Virus record (IMG/VR): IMGVR_UViG_2531839528_000015
Length of the DNA: 32,429 nt
Origin: a virus
Lineage: Duplodnaviria; Heunggongvirae; Uroviricota; Caudoviricetes
Direction: 5' to 3' (one strand)
The first letter of the stretch is position 1; every line of letters begins with the position of its first letter. Below the pieces are notes generated by a model that was not told the DNA's origin, made no database searches, and worked only from the letters and a program-made list of their open reading frames with translations. A program made the position numbers and the translations under genes. Of the stretch, positions 1 to 20,597 are shown piece by piece.

Positions 1-452
1 AACACCAGCAAACAGATAAAAAAGGGCCAGCCAATTGGCCAGCCCTTCTTAACAGGATGTCGCTTAAGCGAAATCTTAGTTAAGACGCTCCCAATAAAAC
101 CACATAAAAAACATATAATTATAATAAAAACAATTAGTTAATTTAATTTTTAATGCAGTGAATTGCAATATTCTGCAACCTCCGCCGCCACTTTGCCGCC
201 ACTTAAAGCTTTATACCACACAGACTTTAGTATACCCGAGTGAAACGCTAACACATGAGGTAGTTGGAAAATTTCCGTATATGTTGTAATATTGATACGC
301 ATTATATGATTTTTACCTGATATAATGTAATTATTAGCTTCAAAATTATTTTTGCACGAATCAGGTATTACCAAGTAGTTGTCAGTTTTTAAAAACCCAA
401 CATCCTAAAATTAGCATTGTTTTTTAACCACAAAACATCCACGGAGAAGAAC

Positions 453-1262
453 GTGTCAAAAAAGGATACAATCCAGATTATCGATATCAGGATGCAGAGA
501 CCAATCATAGCAAGAATAGAAGAAGAAAATTTAAATTTGACATTGCAAATGTCAGATAAAGCCACATTATCTGGTGCGACAGTTAGTTTTTTCACCCCAA
601 ATAACGTTTCTATATTCTTATCCTCAGCAAAAAAAGAGCTCTCAAAATCCAATTCTATATATAAAAGTCTTTTTGGAAAAATACACAAAACCAAACATAA
701 AAACTTTAAAATTTCCGACAAAGACCTGCCGAGACTCTATAATTACTTTGAATCAATTCAGACGGCCATTATTTCTATGTATACTGCAATTGAGTCTTTT
801 GCAAATATATGCATACCACATGATTATGTTTATGAAAAAAACAATGCCAAGGGAATCAAAGAATCCTATAGCAAAGAGCTAATTGAGCGATATATACCAA
901 CAAGTGAAAAAATAGATAAAATCCTACCGTCTATTTTAAATTGTGATTCGCCTAAAGGTTCAAAACTATGGCAAGATTTTAAAAGCCTTGAGTCACTTAG
1001 AAATGACATAATTCACCCCAAGACAACAAAGAAAAACACAGAAACAAAAGAAGACTCATCTTTTTTATGCATTTTACTATCAGATGACTTTATAAAAAAA
1101 GTTTCCTGTGGATTTGATTTGGTATCTTATTTTTGCAAACAAGACACTACTCATAGTCTTTTCCCAATGGGTTTCGGTGAAATTGAACTTAAACCTGTCC
1201 CAATTAAAGCCGGTGACTTTGAAAAAGTTGATGATCATGATGAAATAGAATTACCATCATAA
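453..1262 (+). CDS. Hypothetical AT-rich accessory protein next to the integrase 3' end, with a possible HEPN-like Rx4H motif
   Basis: ORF-track frame 417..1262 opens with TTG. An in-frame GTG at 453 is preceded by GGAG at 443-446, so 453 is the preferred start; the first in-frame ATG is at 492. Translation is Lys/Asn/Ile-rich, unlike the backbone. Motif R-N-D-I-I-H at residues 195-200 (nt 999-1016). Confidence 0.5.
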   Translation: MSKKDTIQIIDIRMQRPIIARIEEENLNLTLQMSDKATLSGATVSFFTPNNVSIFLSSAKKELSKSNSIYKSLFGKIHKTKHKNFKISDKDLPRLYNYFESIQTAIISMYTAIESFANICIPHDYVYEKNNAKGIKESYSKELIERYIPTSEKIDKILPSILNCDSPKGSKLWQDFKSLESLRNDIIHPKTTKKNTETKEDSSFLCILLSDDFIKKVSCGFDLVSYFCKQDTTHSLFPMGFGEIELKPVPIKAGDFEKVDDHDEIELPS

Positions 1263-1310
1263 CAAAAAAACACAAACCATAAAGACGGCCATAGGTGGTC
1301 TTTATGGTTT
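1263..1310 (-). terminator. Intrinsic terminator downstream of int
   Basis: Perfect 13-bp inverted repeat aaaccataaagac (1274-1286) / gtctttatggttt (1298-1310) with an 11-nt loop. On the minus strand the hairpin is followed by a T-run (complement of caaaaaaac at 1263-1271). Confidence 0.6.
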
Positions 1311-1378
1311 ACAATAGACGCAGCCGTTATTAAATTTAAATCCAACAGCGTTAAAATAAACTAACAATATACGCATAA

Positions 1379-2419
1379 TTAATCTTTCCATTTAAAACCA
1401 TTACATAATGTTAAAGGATTAAATGTTACAGCCTCCTCAAGATGATCCGGGGAGAAATGTGCATACTTCATAGTTTCACGAATATTCGCATGACCGAGTA
1501 TACGTTGCAGCACAAGAATATTCCCGCCATTCATCATAAAATGAGCGCCGAAGGTATGACGCAGAACGTGTGTCTTTTGCCCTTCCGTCAGTTCGATATC
1601 CGTTAGTTTGAGCATCTTTTTAAACTCCTGATAGCAAGGCTTAAACATCTTTCCCTGCCTTTCAGATAATTCGTCATACAACCATTTTGGGATCGGAACG
1701 GTTCGATTCTTTTTCCCTTTCGTTTTGGTGAAGGTCAGTTTATGTGGCGAGAGCTGGGGACGTGTCAACCTCTCAGCCTCACCCCATCTAGCACCTGTTG
1801 CAAGACAAATCTTAACAATCATGGTGAGGTCTTCTTTTCCGTATTGCTCGCATGCCTGAAACAATTTCGGAATTTGAGACAAAGTGAGCCAAGACATTTC
1901 TTTCTCGGCTTCCTTGAAAACACGGACTCCATCAAGTGGATTTGGTAAGCTCCACTCCCCTAGCCTTTTGAGCTCATTAAATACAGCCTCAAGATATTGT
2001 TGCTCACGATTGACAGTTATCGGTTTAGCAATCCATTTTGCCGGGTCTTTATGATAGCCATTATCTATCTCCCCCCGAAGTCGGCGGTCACGGTAATGAG
2101 CCCAATCTTTAGCAGTAAGGCGGGATGCAATAGGGTCACCAAGTCCATTACACACGATTTGAAGTTTAGCTAACCGCGACTTACTGGCGACCAGTGCCTG
2201 TCCGTGTAAATTATGCCAAAGCTGGATAATCTCACTTAAGCGTCGGCGGTCTTCTTTCTTGCCGAGCCACGGCTTATCCTCACTCTCACTTTTCGTAAAT
2301 GCTTCGAATGCCTCGGCCTCACCTTTGGTATTGAATTGCCGACGTATACGCCGCCCTTCTCGACCATTTGGATAGAGCTCGCATAACCATTTGCCATTTT
2401 TTTGCTTACTTACAGTCAT
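1379..2419 (-). CDS. int: Tyrosine integrase (P2/186 family)
   Basis: 346-aa ORF with ATG start at 2417-2419. C-terminal tyrosine-recombinase motifs HVLRHTFGAHF and LGHANIRETMKYAHF. Lies at the prophage end, transcribed the same way as the repressor. Confidence 0.9.
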   Translation of the reverse strand: MTVSKQKNGKWLCELYPNGREGRRIRRQFNTKGEAEAFEAFTKSESEDKPWLGKKEDRRRLSEIIQLWHNLHGQALVASKSRLAKLQIVCNGLGDPIASRLTAKDWAHYRDRRLRGEIDNGYHKDPAKWIAKPITVNREQQYLEAVFNELKRLGEWSLPNPLDGVRVFKEAEKEMSWLTLSQIPKLFQACEQYGKEDLTMIVKICLATGARWGEAERLTRPQLSPHKLTFTKTKGKKNRTVPIPKWLYDELSERQGKMFKPCYQEFKKMLKLTDIELTEGQKTHVLRHTFGAHFMMNGGNILVLQRILGHANIRETMKYAHFSPDHLEEAVTFNPLTLCNGFKWKD

Positions 2420-8469: not shown

Positions 8470-8534
8470 AACGCCGCCGGTGCTGAAACTTGCTTTCAGT
8501 GCTGGCGGGGTTGAACAACTCGCACCGCGAGGCG
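8470..8534 (+). repeat. 65-bp stem-loop repeat, copy 1
   Basis: aacgccgccggtgctgaaacttgctttcagtgctggcggggttgaacaactcgcaccgcgaggcg. Begins 3 nt after the DinI-like stop. A 15-bp stem forms only as + strand RNA because it uses G-U pairs. Confidence 0.7.
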
Positions 8535-8662
8535 CTAGTTCTTCCTCTCAAAGTTTCTCGATGTTTTATTGGTTACACACCAGTGATGAATGGGACGTTA
8601 CCTTAGCGGGTTTTATAGTGGCGCTGTGGCAGCGCTAAATAAAATTCATTGAGGGCGATAAT

Positions 8663-8874: not shown

Positions 8875-8939
8875 AACGCCGCCGGAGCTGAAACTCGCTT
8901 TCAGGTCTGGCGGGGTTGAACAACGAGCTACGCGAGGCG
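8875..8939 (+). repeat. 65-bp stem-loop repeat, copy 2
   Basis: aacgccgccggagctgaaactcgctttcaggtctggcggggttgaacaacgagctacgcgaggcg. Differs from copy 1 at about 8 of 65 positions and begins 3 nt after the stop of the 69-aa ORF. Confidence 0.7.
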
Positions 8940-9005
8940 TTAGCCGGTCATAGCGTCGCAAATACTTCAACCGTCTGCTGGTTAAATAATTCGAGGTTTT
9001 TGGAC

Positions 9006-9764: not shown

Positions 9765-10769
9765 CTAATTTACATGTATGTAGAGTTCACCGTCGCCAGA
9801 CCAATCGGGACACTCTAAAACAAGCCCAAACTGCTTGAATATTTCATCAATGATTATTGTTATCTCCCGAAAATCACCAAAACCTGTAATGTGCTGGTCA
9901 TTAAACTTCCCATAAAGATTCTGAAAAGCAATGCCTAATTCTGATAATTGATATCTTATCTTTGAGTTGGATAGTGTAAGGGATAGCTTTGGATCGTATT
10001 CTTTAATATTGATGTTTAGAGAATGGACATAACCCATCGCATAAGCATAAGAGTTGATGATTAGCCTGATACGTTTTTTTACTTCAAGATACATGTCATT
10101 CAGAGAAATATTACCGTACTTATAACCCCAGATGAGTTTTTCAATCTCGTCAGATACTTCATTTACAACAGTGTCAAGATTCTCTAAAAATAAATCGACA
10201 GTTTCTTGAGGGGCAGACCCCGAAGACATGTAATTAGCGAGATATTCAGACCATGCACGCGTGGCTGAGATAAGAAGCGCGCTACCATACTCGTTGACTG
10301 TAAAGTTTTGGGCTAAGCATGTTAGTAAGTTTTTTTCATGTACGTGCACTAATTCATGGTGAATGCGATGGATGACTGCGAGGTATCCTTCTTCTTTCAG
10401 TTTTAAGAAGCTACCATCATTGAAAAGCTCAACAAAAAAATCAATCGATAGCACAAGGGTATATTCTTCATATAGCCCATCATTGCCAATTTTTGTTACT
10501 AACTGCCCGACGGCTGCGCCCTGTTTGCTATTGGTAAATGAACTAGGGGATTTGTGTTGGTAAGAGGATGTTACCTTTTGAAGAGCTTCACTGAAGTTAT
10601 AGGAAACAATCACGCATTTTAATTTGGAGATATCAAGATTGAGATTCTTTGTTAAAGCTCGGATAGCTTCTAGTGTGAAATTACCGATATTATTTGCTTC
10701 TTGCTCAGTAGCGAAACCTTCGAGGGTTATTTTAAAATCAGTTTCCAAAATATTAATCTCCGCGCCCAT
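9765..10769 (-). CDS. Hypothetical AT-rich 334-aa protein with an HExxH motif, between cos and Q (candidate defence or exclusion cargo)
   Basis: ATG at 10767-10769. Asn/Ile/Leu/Glu-rich translation. HRIHHELVHVHE at residues 134-145 (nt 10344-10358). No Walker A motif and no transmembrane segment seen. Confidence 0.7.
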   Translation of the reverse strand: MGAEINILETDFKITLEGFATEQEANNIGNFTLEAIRALTKNLNLDISKLKCVIVSYNFSEALQKVTSSYQHKSPSSFTNSKQGAAVGQLVTKIGNDGLYEEYTLVLSIDFFVELFNDGSFLKLKEEGYLAVIHRIHHELVHVHEKNLLTCLAQNFTVNEYGSALLISATRAWSEYLANYMSSGSAPQETVDLFLENLDTVVNEVSDEIEKLIWGYKYGNISLNDMYLEVKKRIRLIINSYAYAMGYVHSLNINIKEYDPKLSLTLSNSKIRYQLSELGIAFQNLYGKFNDQHITGFGDFREITIIIDEIFKQFGLVLECPDWSGDGELYIHVN

Positions 10770-10846: not shown

Positions 10847-11893
10847 TTATTCTGGGTTGTCGAGGGTGTACTCTTTGAATCTGATGACCTCCATGCCGAG
10901 CCAGTCATTTACCTCCCTGAACCTGTCCTGTAGCGGCGACAGCTCGTTGCGCACAAATACCTTTGCCACCTTCTCAACATCACCGAGTGAACCGATATTC
11001 TCGGGCTTGCCGCCCATGAGCTGGAACGGTACGCGGTGCGCGTCCATCAGATCGGCGGCACTGGCCTTCTTGATGTTGAAAAAGTCATCCTTTGTGGCGA
11101 CCTCGCTCAGTGGCACGATTTTGATGCCGTCCGGTTTTCCGCCGGGAGCGTAGAAAAACAGGTTCTTAAAGTTGCCGAGCCCTTTTGAGTTGCGCATCGC
11201 CTCGCGCAGCGATTCGACGTCGGTCGCGCTCTGCGCCGGGTCAGTCACATACATGATGTAGCCTGCGTGCGCGCCGTTCTGATAATACTTGCGGCGGAAC
11301 AGCGTCGCGGATTCATTCAGCCAAGCGGAATTAAGCGCGCTGAGATATTCCGGCAGACCGTAAATCTCCTGATTAATGTCGGGCTCCAGCAGGTGAAACA
11401 CGGTATCAGGCGCGAACTCGTGCGGCTGGGTGAAGTTTTCCACAAACCAGAAAATCGAATCGTCGACTCCGCGTCGGGTGTATTTGGCTGGCGAGGCCAG
11501 CAGTTTGATTAACTGGCCGGTGACGCTGTGGCGCTGCTCAAGAAAGGCGTTACCGAACACCAGATAATCGAGCGCAAAGCGGCTGAAATCCTGACGGGAT
11601 AACAACGGGTGCGGAATGTAGGTGCTCGCGAGCACGTTACGCTTAACATAAATTGGCGAGCTGTGATGCACGGCAGAGCGCAGGCTCTTTGCCAGCCCTG
11701 AGAAGCTGACCGGCGGCTCGTACCATTTGCCGTTACTGATGCACTCGACGTAATCCAGAATGTCGCGCTTATCGAGTACCGGCACCGGCTCGCCGAAGGT
11801 GAACGCTGTCGTTTTTGGCGGTGCGCTGGCGGTCAGTTGTTGTGGTTTGCTGGCCTTTTGTGCGTTGGCTTTACGGGATTTTTGTTTACCCAT
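10847..11893 (-). CDS. Q: Portal protein (P2 gpQ-like)
   Basis: 348 aa, the size and position of P2 Q, adjacent to and co-oriented with the large terminase. Confidence 0.9.
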   Translation of the reverse strand: MGKQKSRKANAQKASKPQQLTASAPPKTTAFTFGEPVPVLDKRDILDYVECISNGKWYEPPVSFSGLAKSLRSAVHHSSPIYVKRNVLASTYIPHPLLSRQDFSRFALDYLVFGNAFLEQRHSVTGQLIKLLASPAKYTRRGVDDSIFWFVENFTQPHEFAPDTVFHLLEPDINQEIYGLPEYLSALNSAWLNESATLFRRKYYQNGAHAGYIMYVTDPAQSATDVESLREAMRNSKGLGNFKNLFFYAPGGKPDGIKIVPLSEVATKDDFFNIKKASAADLMDAHRVPFQLMGGKPENIGSLGDVEKVAKVFVRNELSPLQDRFREVNDWLGMEVIRFKEYTLDNPE

Positions 11894-19721: not shown

Positions 19722-20597
19722 CTAGCCTCGTAAATATCGTTTAGTAAATTTCGTGTTTGGTCTGGATGATAGGATTTGTCTTTCTATTTCACTATCACAG
19801 TCTATATAGTCTAGTGTATTAGCTTCTATAAGTTTGTTCACGTCAATATTTTTTGCATCGATTATGTTGGCATTTCTAAGGTTTGCATTGGTGTATTCCA
19901 CTTTATCCAAATCACACTCTCTGAGTACGCAACTTTTCATTTCCGCATTGGAAAAATCCCCACCATATAAATAGCAGCCTTCAAAAATAACACCGTTTAA
20001 CTTTGAATCCTGAGCTTTAATATTTTTTATTTTACACTTTATAAATTTTACGTTTTTCATTTTGCTCTTGCTAATATTTAATGCCTGGATTGTACATCCA
20101 GTGAAAGAACAGTCTCTTATGTTAGATTTTTCCATATTTAACCCAGATAGTTCTGAGGTTTTAAAGTGTAAGTATTTAATGGTAAAAAGGTCACCCAACT
20201 CCATTCTGGGTATGTCTATATTGAAGACACCTTTATTGTTGAGCTGTCTTATTATTTTTATTTTTTGTATTTTCAAATCAACATTAACGTGCTTAGCTAA
20301 GTTTCCCAAATCCTCAAGAAGTTCATTAATCGTTTCTTTGTTTTGTCTTCTGTATTCAAAGTAATAAAGGATGACACCTAATACAAAAAAATCCAAAATG
20401 GATGAATTTGCATTTATTAGGAACCCAGACAGGAATGAATCATTGTAATTACCATAGTGTATAGAGGCAAGTGTTACGCCAAATGCATATAAAATAAAAA
20501 TAATAAACACGTGCTTCATTTTGCATAAGGATTGTATTATTGGTTTTATGGCATCAATTTTGTTCATTGCTGCAGCAGCGAAAGATTTAAAAGTCAT
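19722..20597 (-). CDS. Membrane-anchored pentapeptide-repeat protein (AT-rich moron at the P2 orf30 position between S and V)
   Basis: 291 aa. Two hydrophobic helices (VFIIFILYAFGVTLASI and ILDFFVLGVILYYF), then pentapeptide-repeat-like sequence (NISKSKMKNVKFIKCKIKNIKAQDSKLNGVIFEGCYLYGGDFSNAEMKSCVLRECDLDKVEYTNANLRNANII). Opposite strand to both neighbours. Confidence 0.7.
   Translation of the reverse strand: MTFKSFAAAAMNKIDAIKPIIQSLCKMKHVFIIFILYAFGVTLASIHYGNYNDSFLSGFLINANSSILDFFVLGVILYYFEYRRQNKETINELLEDLGNLAKHVNVDLKIQKIKIIRQLNNKGVFNIDIPRMELGDLFTIKYLHFKTSELSGLNMEKSNIRDCSFTGCTIQALNISKSKMKNVKFIKCKIKNIKAQDSKLNGVIFEGCYLYGGDFSNAEMKSCVLRECDLDKVEYTNANLRNANIIDAKNIDVNKLIEANTLDYIDCDSEIERQILSSRPNTKFTKRYLRG

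What the first reader, a model, noticed from the sequence alone, without database searches (positions are those of the whole stretch)
417..1378. AT-rich accessory gene at the integrase end with a possible HEPN-like Rx4H motif
Immediately beyond the int 3' end, past a strong terminator, lies an AT-rich ORF of about 270 aa on the + strand. It contains R-N-D-I-I-H (R195 to H200), which fits the Rx4-6H signature of HEPN RNases used by several abortive-infection and toxin proteins. The integrase-proximal end of a prophage is a common site for defence and virulence cargo. A single short motif is weak evidence, and the gene could instead belong to the flanking host DNA.
Basis: partly seen in the sequence, partly recalled or inferred. 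Interest (0 to 1): 0.55.

Follow-up and report, generated by a model that had tools for sequence, protein, structure and literature searches.

The report
Stand-alone HEPN nuclease-like prophage cargo gene
The AT-rich gene next to the integrase is a real, strongly conserved single-gene cargo inside a 186/P2-like E. coli prophage; it encodes an uncharacterised member of the HEPN (RNA-cutting) superfamily, which makes it a plausible but untested anti-phage defence gene.

Summary
A 269-aa ORF (GTG 453 to stop 1262, + strand, 32% GC against 51% for the window) lies convergent with int and is followed by a strong hairpin. It carries R-N-D-I-I-H at nt 999-1016.

The motif alone is weak, since 33% of shuffles of this protein contain an Rx4-6H. 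Across 165 diverse relatives, however, R is present in 156/156 sequences covering that column, the next residue is N/D/H/K, and H is present in 153/155.

The gene is not host DNA. The att core is at 78-90 (3' end of rplS). The gene sits in a ~1.2-kb insert (201-1396) that split the last codons of int, and sister prophages at the same site lack it.

Only the coding sequence recurs elsewhere: a Serratia P4-like satellite hotspot, a lambdoid Q-holin slot, Bacteroidetes conjugative elements and a plasmid. No partner gene is conserved.

Best reading: a stand-alone HEPN RNase-type abortive-infection or exclusion effector. The fold is well supported; the activity and the defence role are inferred.

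The parts
78..90 (.). att core (attL copy) AGTTAAGACGCTC, overlapping the last codons of host rplS (stop codon at 76-78 on the minus strand)
   Evidence: Identity to the empty K-12 yfiB-rplS site ends at window 90. The same 13 bp are present at attR next to rplS in strain ECE313.
91..200 (.). Phage-side att arm shared with sister prophages that lack the gene. Positions ~172-200 (minus strand) are the orphaned remnant of the ancestral int C-terminus (GGKVAAEVAE here, GDNMAAEVA* in N56).
   Evidence: Window 1-201 aligns to N56 and phage 613R3 at 89% identity.
201..1396 (.). ~1.2-kb AT-rich cargo insertion (31.6% GC), absent from sister prophages at the same site. It split int eight codons before its stop.
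   Evidence: In N56 and 613R3 the segment homologous to window 1-201 is separated by only ~11 nt from the segment homologous to window 1412 onward. The int proteins are 95% identical up to G341 and then diverge: FKWKD* in the window, DNMAAEVA* in N56.
318..326 (+). Candidate extended -10 promoter element TGaTATAAT (no good -35)
   Evidence: Read directly from the sequence. It was not reported by the consensus scan, which requires a -35. This part is an inference only.
443..446 (+). Shine-Dalgarno GGAG, 6 nt upstream of GTG 453
   Evidence: Read from the sequence. Cross-genus DNA homology starts at 430-443.
453..1262 (+). CDS of the 269-aa HEPN-superfamily protein (WP_001394629.1; PHROG 17113; precomputed weak Pfam PF27216 YopA_C)
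999..1016 (+). R183-N-D-I-I-H188, the HEPN Rx4H signature (followed by P, then K190)
   Evidence: R 156/156, position 184 N117/D22/H14/K3, H 153/155, K190 150 of the 155 sequences that cover that column, among 165 aligned sequences (the window protein and 164 database relatives).
1274..1310 (.). Perfect 13-bp hairpin between the convergent cargo gene and int; a likely terminator, possibly acting on both strands
   Evidence: dG -22.4 kcal/mol, z -7.4, 0/200 shuffles as stable. The terminator scan also reports a hit here.
1379..2419 (-). Tyrosine integrase (346 aa) of the 186/PSP3-like prophage. Its last five codons (1382-1396) come from the cargo insert.

Best explanation
The gene encodes a stand-alone, cytoplasmic HEPN-superfamily protein. 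A helical HEPN core carries the invariant R183-x4-H188 catalytic signature. Around it are family-specific additions: an N-terminal four-stranded beta unit and two beta hairpins, with further near-invariant polar residues (D11, R13, N50, E100, E114, N118, K153, K190).

It is a self-contained one-gene moron with its own ribosome-binding site and terminator. It was inserted into the last codons of int of a 186/P2-like prophage, in the att-int slot that is a documented minor defence hotspot of P2-like phages.

Most likely mechanism (inferred). The protein is made in the lysogen and kept inactive, with no separate antitoxin; control is probably intramolecular or through oligomeric state. Infection by a heterologous phage, or entry of another mobile element, would allow two Rx4H sites to form the composite metal-independent RNase centre typical of HEPN dimers. 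That centre would cut tRNA, rRNA or mRNA, stop translation and abort the infection.

Shown here: location inside the prophage, single-gene modularity, purifying selection, HEPN fold and motif conservation.
Inferred: RNase activity, dimerisation, trigger and anti-phage phenotype.
For: Fold and motif:
- The AF2 model has pLDDT 92.8 and pTM 0.89.
- The motif is conserved across 165 sequences.
- Recurrent sub-threshold HMM hits fall only on HEPN families.

Inside the prophage:
- att core and the empty-site comparison.
- The insertion splits the int 3' end.

Mobile single-gene module:
- DNA homology to the Serratia and Morganella copies covers only 430/443-1262.
- Contexts are: the same att-int slot in a Klebsiella variicola prophage; between delta and int of a Serratia P4-like satellite; beside a RelA_SpoT gene and an int fragment at icd in Morganella; between antiterminator Q and holin in a Providencia lambdoid prophage; CTnDOT-like and other conjugative elements beside HipA/HTH and TIR_2 genes; and an 8-kb Acinetobacter plasmid.

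Prior from the literature (PMC13586616):
- The att-int region holds 3% of P2 defence systems.
- The P4 int to psu-delta-sid interval is the main P4 hotspot.
- 6 of 8 randomly chosen unknown-function P4 hotspot loci protected against phages.

Selection and rarity: dN/dS 0.03-0.08; 19/5426 E. coli genomes carry the gene.
Against: - No curated HEPN model reaches its cut-off, and profile searches find no PDB sequence match.
- No strong match to any defence-system model in PADLOC v2.
- Several family contexts (tra operon ends, plasmids) are generic accessory positions rather than defence islands.
- No trigger, target or phenotype is known.
- How a constitutively encoded nuclease is kept harmless without an antitoxin is unexplained.
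- Residue-level superposition of R183/H188 on the catalytic residues of solved HEPN toxins could not be inspected.
Confidence: 0.5

Rival explanations
1. It is the toxin of an addiction (toxin-antitoxin-like) module that stabilises the mobile element. An unrecognised antitoxin, such as a small RNA, a tiny ORF or the protein's own N-terminal unit, would hold it in check. Loss of the element would free the HEPN RNase and kill or arrest the segregant. Phage defence would then be at most a side effect.
For: - The best structural matches are HEPN toxins of HEPN-MNT toxin-antitoxin systems.
- Relatives sit on a small mobilisable plasmid beside a YafO toxin gene and on conjugative elements beside HipA/HTH.
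- The family is confined to mobile elements.
Against: - No MNT or other partner gene is conserved.
- Between genera only the CDS plus ~10-23 nt upstream is homologous, so a cis-encoded antitoxin gene or sRNA outside the CDS is excluded.
- An integrated prophage has little need for post-segregational killing.
Confidence: 0.2
2. It is a HEPN-fold protein that serves the element in some way other than immunity. Examples are a counter-defence or establishment factor that degrades a host or rival RNA or a nucleotide signal, or a non-catalytic nucleotide/RNA-binding regulator.
For: - In CTnDOT-like elements the homologue lies next to the ArdA anti-restriction and RadC genes.
- HEPN domains can be non-catalytic binding modules, e.g. 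the sacsin HEPN (3o10) among the hits.
Against: - Near-invariance of R, H and several other charged residues over >1000 clusters argues for catalysis.
- Closely related prophages do without the gene, so it is not part of the phage life cycle.
- No anti-defence family was matched.
Confidence: 0.15
3. The gene belongs to flanking host DNA (or is a spurious AT-rich ORF), and the Rx4H is a chance motif.
For: - Rx4-6H arises in 33% of shuffles of this protein.
- The region abuts the host gene yfiB.
Against: - The host/phage junction is at window 90, upstream of the gene.
- The gene is absent from 5407 of 5426 E. coli genomes.
- dN/dS is 0.03-0.08.
- The motif is invariant in the family.
Confidence: 0.01

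Closest known systems
HEPN toxins of HEPN-MNT toxin-antitoxin systems (Shewanella SO_3166, PDB 5yep_B; Aphanizomenon HEPN, 7ae2_A/8xdj_A)
   Different: - Sequence identity is only 4-10%.
- The window protein is twice as long (269 vs ~135 aa), with an extra N-terminal beta unit and hairpins.
- No MNT nucleotidyltransferase antitoxin gene is adjacent in any context.
Single-protein abortive-infection HEPN proteins (AbiV, AbiD/AbiF = Abi_2, AbiJ, AbiU2) and ApeA, as classified by Anantharaman et al. 2013 (cited in PMC9122126)
   Same: One-gene HEPN effectors carried on mobile elements that block phages. This is the same logic proposed here. Isolated family members give weak hits to HEPN_AbiV (1/81) and HEPN_Apea (4/81).
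   Different: - No hit reaches a curated cut-off, and none at all to Abi_2.
- Domain layout differs.
- No phenotype is known for this family.
RT-associated HEPN (PADLOC PDLC03820 'RTasHEPN', DRT/UG-Abi reverse-transcriptase systems; PMC9226505) and Pfam HEPN_RiboL-PSP / HEPN_Cthe2314
   Same: Nearest families by sequence. RTasHEPN is hit by 31/81 members (best E 1.2e-4), RiboL-PSP by 17/81 and Cthe2314 by 14/81. The RTasHEPN alignment with the window protein ends at H188.
   Different: - All hits are sub-threshold.
- No reverse transcriptase or RiboL-PSP partner lies nearby.
[quoted passage not shown] 2022 PMC9122126; PMC13586616)
   Same: An AT-rich, self-contained cargo gene in a variable slot of a P2-family prophage. 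A homologue sits in the P4 int to psu-delta-sid hotspot. The att-int slot is reported to hold 3% of P2 defence systems.
   Different: - It is unrelated in sequence to old, tin and fun.
- The 'Putative HEPN' that Rousset et al. tested from a P2 locus of strain S88 is a different protein.
- This gene has not been tested.
Pfam PF27216 (YopA_C) / PHROG 17113
   Same: - The protein matches PHROG 17113 end to end (E 1e-180).
- Close homologues carry a precomputed, weak PF27216 hit.
- About a quarter of the relatives retrieved (42 of 164) have an extra 140-200-aa N-terminal region, as the name 'C-terminal domain' implies.
   Different: - Both entries are function-unknown.
- PF27216 is not in the local Pfam copy, so membership could not be re-tested.
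- No link to a phage YopA gene could be shown by tblastn.

Membership tests
HEPN superfamily | Conserved Rx4-6H motif with a polar residue (N/D/H) after the R | tested here: met
   RNDIIH at residues 183-188. Across 165 sequences: R 156/156, next residue N117/D22/H14/K3, H 153/155.
HEPN superfamily | All-alpha up-and-down helical bundle superposable on solved HEPN domains | tested here: met
HEPN superfamily | Significant match to a curated HEPN sequence model | tested here: inconclusive
   Zero Pfam/NCBIfam hits for the protein itself. Members give only sub-threshold hits, but these fall consistently on HEPN families.
HEPN superfamily | Metal-independent RNase activity from a composite dimeric active site | not testable with these tools
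HEPN-MNT toxin-antitoxin system | Adjacent minimal nucleotidyltransferase (MNT) antitoxin gene | tested here: not met
   No such ORF lies in 201-1396. Neighbours differ in every context, and none is an NTase paired with the gene. Only the CDS is conserved between genera.
   Abi_2 is not among the hits for the protein, nor among the families listed for the members scanned (top 25 of 51 families).
ApeA-like HEPN (PF18739) | Match above the Pfam gathering score | tested here: not met
   Only 4/81 members hit, best E 6.9e-4. P0210, which UniRef names 'Apea-like HEPN domain-containing', gives no such hit in the local Pfam.
Pfam PF27216 YopA_C | Match to the family model | tested here: inconclusive
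   The precomputed hit is marked weak on homologues P0002, P0005 and P0012. The model is absent from the local Pfam copy.
PHROG 17113 | Full-length profile match | tested here: met
   E 1.1e-180, profile positions 1-256 of 256. The family has no known function.
Known anti-phage defence systems (PADLOC-DB v2.0.0) | Confident match to a system component model | tested here: not met
   Best hit is RTasHEPN at E 1.3e-4, 20 bits. There are no strong hits among 81 members.
P2-like prophage cargo in the att-int slot | Lies between the att core and int, inside attL-attR, and is absent from sister prophages | tested here: met
   Core at 78-90, gene at 453-1262, int at 1379-2419. attR lies beside rplS in strain ECE313. 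N56 and 613R3 lack the insert.
P2-like prophage cargo in the att-int slot | Confers exclusion of, or defence against, other phages | not testable with these tools
   Needs plaque assays.
Hailong-type system (pentapeptide/channel protein plus NTase-HEPN protein, as described in PMC13586616) | HEPN protein carries a nucleotidyltransferase domain and is encoded next to the channel protein | tested here: not met
   The model shows no NTase domain. The window's pentapeptide-repeat gene is 18 kb away and is present in only 4 of the 19 E. coli genomes that carry the HEPN gene.

The most novel reading that the evidence does not exclude
The gene is the founding example of a widespread, uncharacterised family of stand-alone HEPN effectors (more than 1000 clusters at 50% identity). 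The family would be a new one-gene abortive-infection or anti-mobile-element system with a built-in sensor or autoinhibitory beta unit and no antitoxin. It would shuttle as a bare coding sequence between the cargo slots of P2-like phages, P4-like satellites, lambdoid phages, conjugative elements and plasmids.
Probability: 0.35. Interest if true: 0.6.

Novelty: new member of a known kind. Interest (0 to 1): 0.45.

Why it matters
If it is an active RNase that blocks phages, it adds a compact one-gene system, with no antitoxin or partner, to the HEPN defence repertoire. It would also give experimental content to a large function-unknown family (PHROG 17113 / PF27216-like) found on prophages, satellites, ICEs and plasmids from Proteobacteria to Bacteroidetes.

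It is also a clean example of the little-studied att-int cargo slot of P2-like phages. The insertion rebuilt the integrase C-terminus, and the arrangement has persisted between E. coli and Klebsiella (dS about 0.9). This shows that cargo can be carried outboard of int without disabling the phage.

The same coding sequence appears in a P4-like satellite hotspot and a lambdoid Q-holin slot. That illustrates gene-level shuttling of accessory functions between competing mobile elements.

Tried and rejected
- Curated family searches. Pfam and NCBIfam found nothing for the protein itself.
- PDB sequence searches. The single sequence, a 13-sequence profile and an 81-sequence profile all found nothing, even at E<=10.
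- Phage-record searches. tblastn against 50,697 phage records found no match with the protein or with a long-form relative. No isolated phage in that set carries it, and the link to YopA could not be verified.
- Viral structure search. Foldseek against BFVD gave no meaningful hit. The afdb50 library was unavailable.
- First AF2 model. The 13-sequence model was poor at both ends (pLDDT 68) and was replaced by the 81-sequence model.
- Literature. There were no hits for PF27216, WP_001394629, or YopA plus HEPN. The 'Putative HEPN' of Rousset et al. Table S2B is an unrelated protein.
- attR within the window. No terminal direct repeat was found because the window ends ~440 bp short of attR.
- Two-part system with the window's pentapeptide-repeat gene. 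Rejected, because 15 of the 19 E. coli carriers lack that gene.
- Host-DNA origin and spurious-ORF readings. Rejected.
- Consensus promoter scan. It found no -35/-10 pair upstream on the + strand. The extended -10 at 318-326 is my reading only.

Full report
**1. What is in the sequence**

The window starts immediately after the stop codon of host yfiB and runs into a 186/PSP3-like (P2-family, Peduoviridae) prophage. The prophage genes in order are int, a DUF2511 gene, CI, CII, Fil and the replication endonuclease.

The flagged ORF is on the + strand. It opens at TTG 417 and stops at 1262. Four observations place the true start at GTG 453:
- GGAG lies at 443-446.
- PGAP annotates that start (WP_001394629.1, 269 aa).
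- DNA homology to the Serratia and Morganella copies begins only at 430-443.
- Morganella has ATG at the same codon.

The CDS is 31.9% GC, against 45% for int and 51% for the whole window.

A perfect 13-bp hairpin at 1274-1310 separates the ORF from the convergent int. Its dG is -22.4 kcal/mol, z -7.4, and none of 200 shuffles folds as well.

R-N-D-I-I-H is at nt 999-1016. It is R183-H188 from GTG 453.

The gene is truly coding and constrained. dN/dS is 0.03-0.08 among the E. coli, Klebsiella, Serratia and Morganella copies, with dS 0.9-2.7.

**2. Is the motif more than chance?**

On its own, no. Rx4-6H appears in 33% of shuffles of this protein, and the stricter R[NDH]xxxH in 1.8%.

The family settles it.
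- A word-indexed search found 15 close relatives.
- An exhaustive profile search found 1070 cluster representatives at E<=1e-3, of which 149 at E<=1e-30.
- In an alignment of 165 sequences, R183 is present in 156/156 sequences that cover the column. Position 184 is N (117), D (22), H (14) or K (3). H188 is present in 153/155. This R-[NDH]-x3-H pattern is the canonical HEPN signature.
- Other near-invariant residues are E114 (164/165), N118 (165/165), K153 (163), W173 (151), E100 (150) and K190 (150) in that alignment.
- D11, R13 and P49-N50 in the N-terminal part are at least 90% conserved in the 81-sequence alignment A4.

**3. Fold**

With 13 sequences the AlphaFold model was good only in the core (pLDDT 68). 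With 81 diverse sequences it reached pLDDT 92.8 and pTM 0.89.

The model has these elements:
- four short strands (residues 18-47);
- a long helix (51-74);
- a helical bundle (89-120, 141-162, 171-187, 203-228), interrupted by two beta hairpins (127-139, 191-200).

- 7ae2_A and 8xdj_A, HEPN toxins;
- 1ylm, 1jog, 2hsb, 3o10 (sacsin HEPN), 4nqf and 1wwp.

Sequence profiles agree.
- No curated model reaches its threshold.
- Among 81 members scanned, the only recurrent Pfam families are HEPN_RiboL-PSP (17), HEPN_Cthe2314 (14), DUF3644 (12), HEPN_Apea (4) and HEPN_Swt1 (3).
- In PADLOC the recurrent families are RTasHEPN (31), CARF_HEPN (9+4), Csx1 and Cas13a.

I conclude that the protein is a divergent HEPN-superfamily member (confidence about 0.85). 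It is not a member of any named HEPN family that I could test.

**4. Host or prophage?**

Identity to the empty K-12 yfiB-rplS site ends at window 90.

The 13-bp core AGTTAAGACGCTC (78-90) overlaps the last codons of rplS. It recurs at attR next to rplS in strain ECE313, where the phage supplies a substitute stop codon and terminator. The window itself ends about 440 bp short of attR.

Sister prophages at the same site (E. coli N56, phage vB_EcoM-613R3) share window 1-201 at 89% identity, then run within about 11 nt into the part of int that aligns with window 1412 onward.

The integrases are 95% identical up to G341 and then diverge. N56 ends DNMAAEVA*; the window's int ends FKWKD*. The ancestral tail survives as an orphan on the minus strand at about 172-200 (GGKVAAEVAE).

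A 1.2-kb AT-rich segment (201-1396) was therefore inserted eight codons before the int stop. It lies outboard of int but inboard of the att arm.

The gene is thus inside the prophage.

Only 19 of 5426 complete E. coli genomes carry the gene, always at this locus and at 99.8% identity or more.

The same arrangement exists at 77% DNA identity in a Klebsiella variicola prophage at the same site. The phage has therefore carried the cargo through substantial divergence.

**5. What travels with it?**

Nothing. Homology to the Serratia and Morganella copies is confined to 430/443-1262.

| Host / element | Position of the homologue |
|---|---|
| Serratia marcescens, P4-like satellite | between delta and int |
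| Morganella, islet at icd | beside a RelA_SpoT-domain gene and an int fragment |
| Providencia, lambdoid prophage | between antiterminator Q and holin (the stx-type moron slot) |
| Simplicispira, island | with int, HNH and IS110 |
| Bacteroidetes, CTnDOT-like elements | after traQ, near ArdA and RadC |
| Conjugative elements | beside HipA/HTH, TraG and TIR_2 genes |
| ParA/IS110 element | accessory position |
| Integrase-adjacent island | with an Imm63 gene |
| Acinetobacter pittii, 8-kb OXA-72 plasmid | accessory position |

About a quarter of the relatives retrieved (42 of 164) carry an extra 140-200-aa N-terminal region with no recognisable domain.

No MNT, antitoxin or other partner is conserved.

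**6. Literature**

A 2026 survey of thousands of P2-like and P4-like elements (PMC13586616) reports three relevant points:
- The att-int interval holds 3% of P2 defence systems.
- The int to psu-delta-sid interval is the main P4 hotspot.
- 6 of 8 randomly picked unknown-function P4 hotspot loci protected against phages.

Rousset et al. 2022 established the hotspot concept. Their tested 'Putative HEPN' from a P2 locus is a different protein.

I found no paper mentioning this protein, PF27216, or YopA together with HEPN.

**7. Mechanism**

Shown:
- a one-gene, self-contained cargo with its own ribosome-binding site and hairpin terminator;
- a cytoplasmic protein (no hydrophobic segment evident by eye in the N-terminal sequence);
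- a HEPN fold with an invariant Rx4H;
- strong purifying selection;
- exclusive association with variable slots of mobile elements, two of which are documented defence hotspots.

Inferred, from established knowledge of HEPN enzymes (HEPN-MNT toxins, RnlA/LsoA, Csm6/Cas13, PrrC/RloC):
- Two Rx4H sites pair in a dimer to form a metal-independent RNase.
- The protein is kept inactive in the lysogen, possibly by its family-specific beta unit.
- It is unleashed by infection to cut RNA and abort the infection.

I rate RNase catalysis at about 0.6 and an anti-phage or anti-element role at about 0.5.

Rivals:
- An addiction toxin with a hidden antitoxin (0.2). The lack of any conserved flank weakens this.
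- A non-immune or counter-defence role (0.15).
- Host DNA or a chance ORF (refuted).

**8. Novelty and verdict**

The kind is known: HEPN effectors as mobile-element cargo. This family is uncharacterised. It is catalogued only as PHROG 17113 (unknown function) and, in precomputed tables, as a weak PF27216 'YopA_C' hit.

I file it as a new member of a known kind. It is a good, cheap experimental candidate rather than a surprise. Interest 0.45.

Noticed in passing
window 19722-20597 (- strand): An AT-rich (30-39% GC) 291-aa gene with an N-terminal hydrophobic region and pentapeptide repeats (Pfam Pentapeptide_4, E 3.9e-19). It sits between tail genes, in the P2 Z/fun-type cargo slot. It is present in only 4 of 5426 E. 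coli genomes, all of which also carry the HEPN gene. It has no PADLOC hit. Its domain content recalls the pentapeptide/channel component of Hailong described in PMC13586616, but no NTase partner is adjacent.
   Followed up: partly
window 9765-10769 (- strand): An AT-rich 334-aa ORF directly beside the portal gene (10847-11893), in the canonical GpA-GpQ (old/tin) defence hotspot of P2-like phages. It has no Pfam or PADLOC hit. It contains an HELVH string (HExxH-like, possible metallopeptidase motif).
   Followed up: partly
window 150-205 (- strand) and 1382-1396 (- strand): The cargo insertion rebuilt the integrase C-terminus. The ancestral last codons survive as an orphan remnant (GGKVAAEVAE, its stop mutated) next to the att arm. 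Int now ends with five cargo-derived residues, FKWKD. Whether this Int is still fully active is unknown.
   Followed up: yes
window 76-90, and locus L030 1960-2000: The prophage integrates into the 3' end of rplS (ribosomal protein L19). At attR the phage supplies a replacement stop codon (TGA in place of TAA) and its own terminator hairpin for the rpsP-rimM-trmD-rplS operon.
   Followed up: partly
L010/L011 7468-8605 (Morganella morganii): Next to the Morganella homologue lies a two-gene pair: a 118-aa ORF plus a 259-aa RelA_SpoT-domain protein. This looks like a toxSAS-type toxin-antitoxin or defence module. The islet lies beside icd in L011 and beside lambdoid tail genes in L010, and carries an integrase fragment.
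   Followed up: no
window 8470-8538 and 8875-8943: A 69-nt direct repeat (87% identity), spaced 405 nt apart, downstream of the replication endonuclease gene. It was not examined.
   Followed up: no
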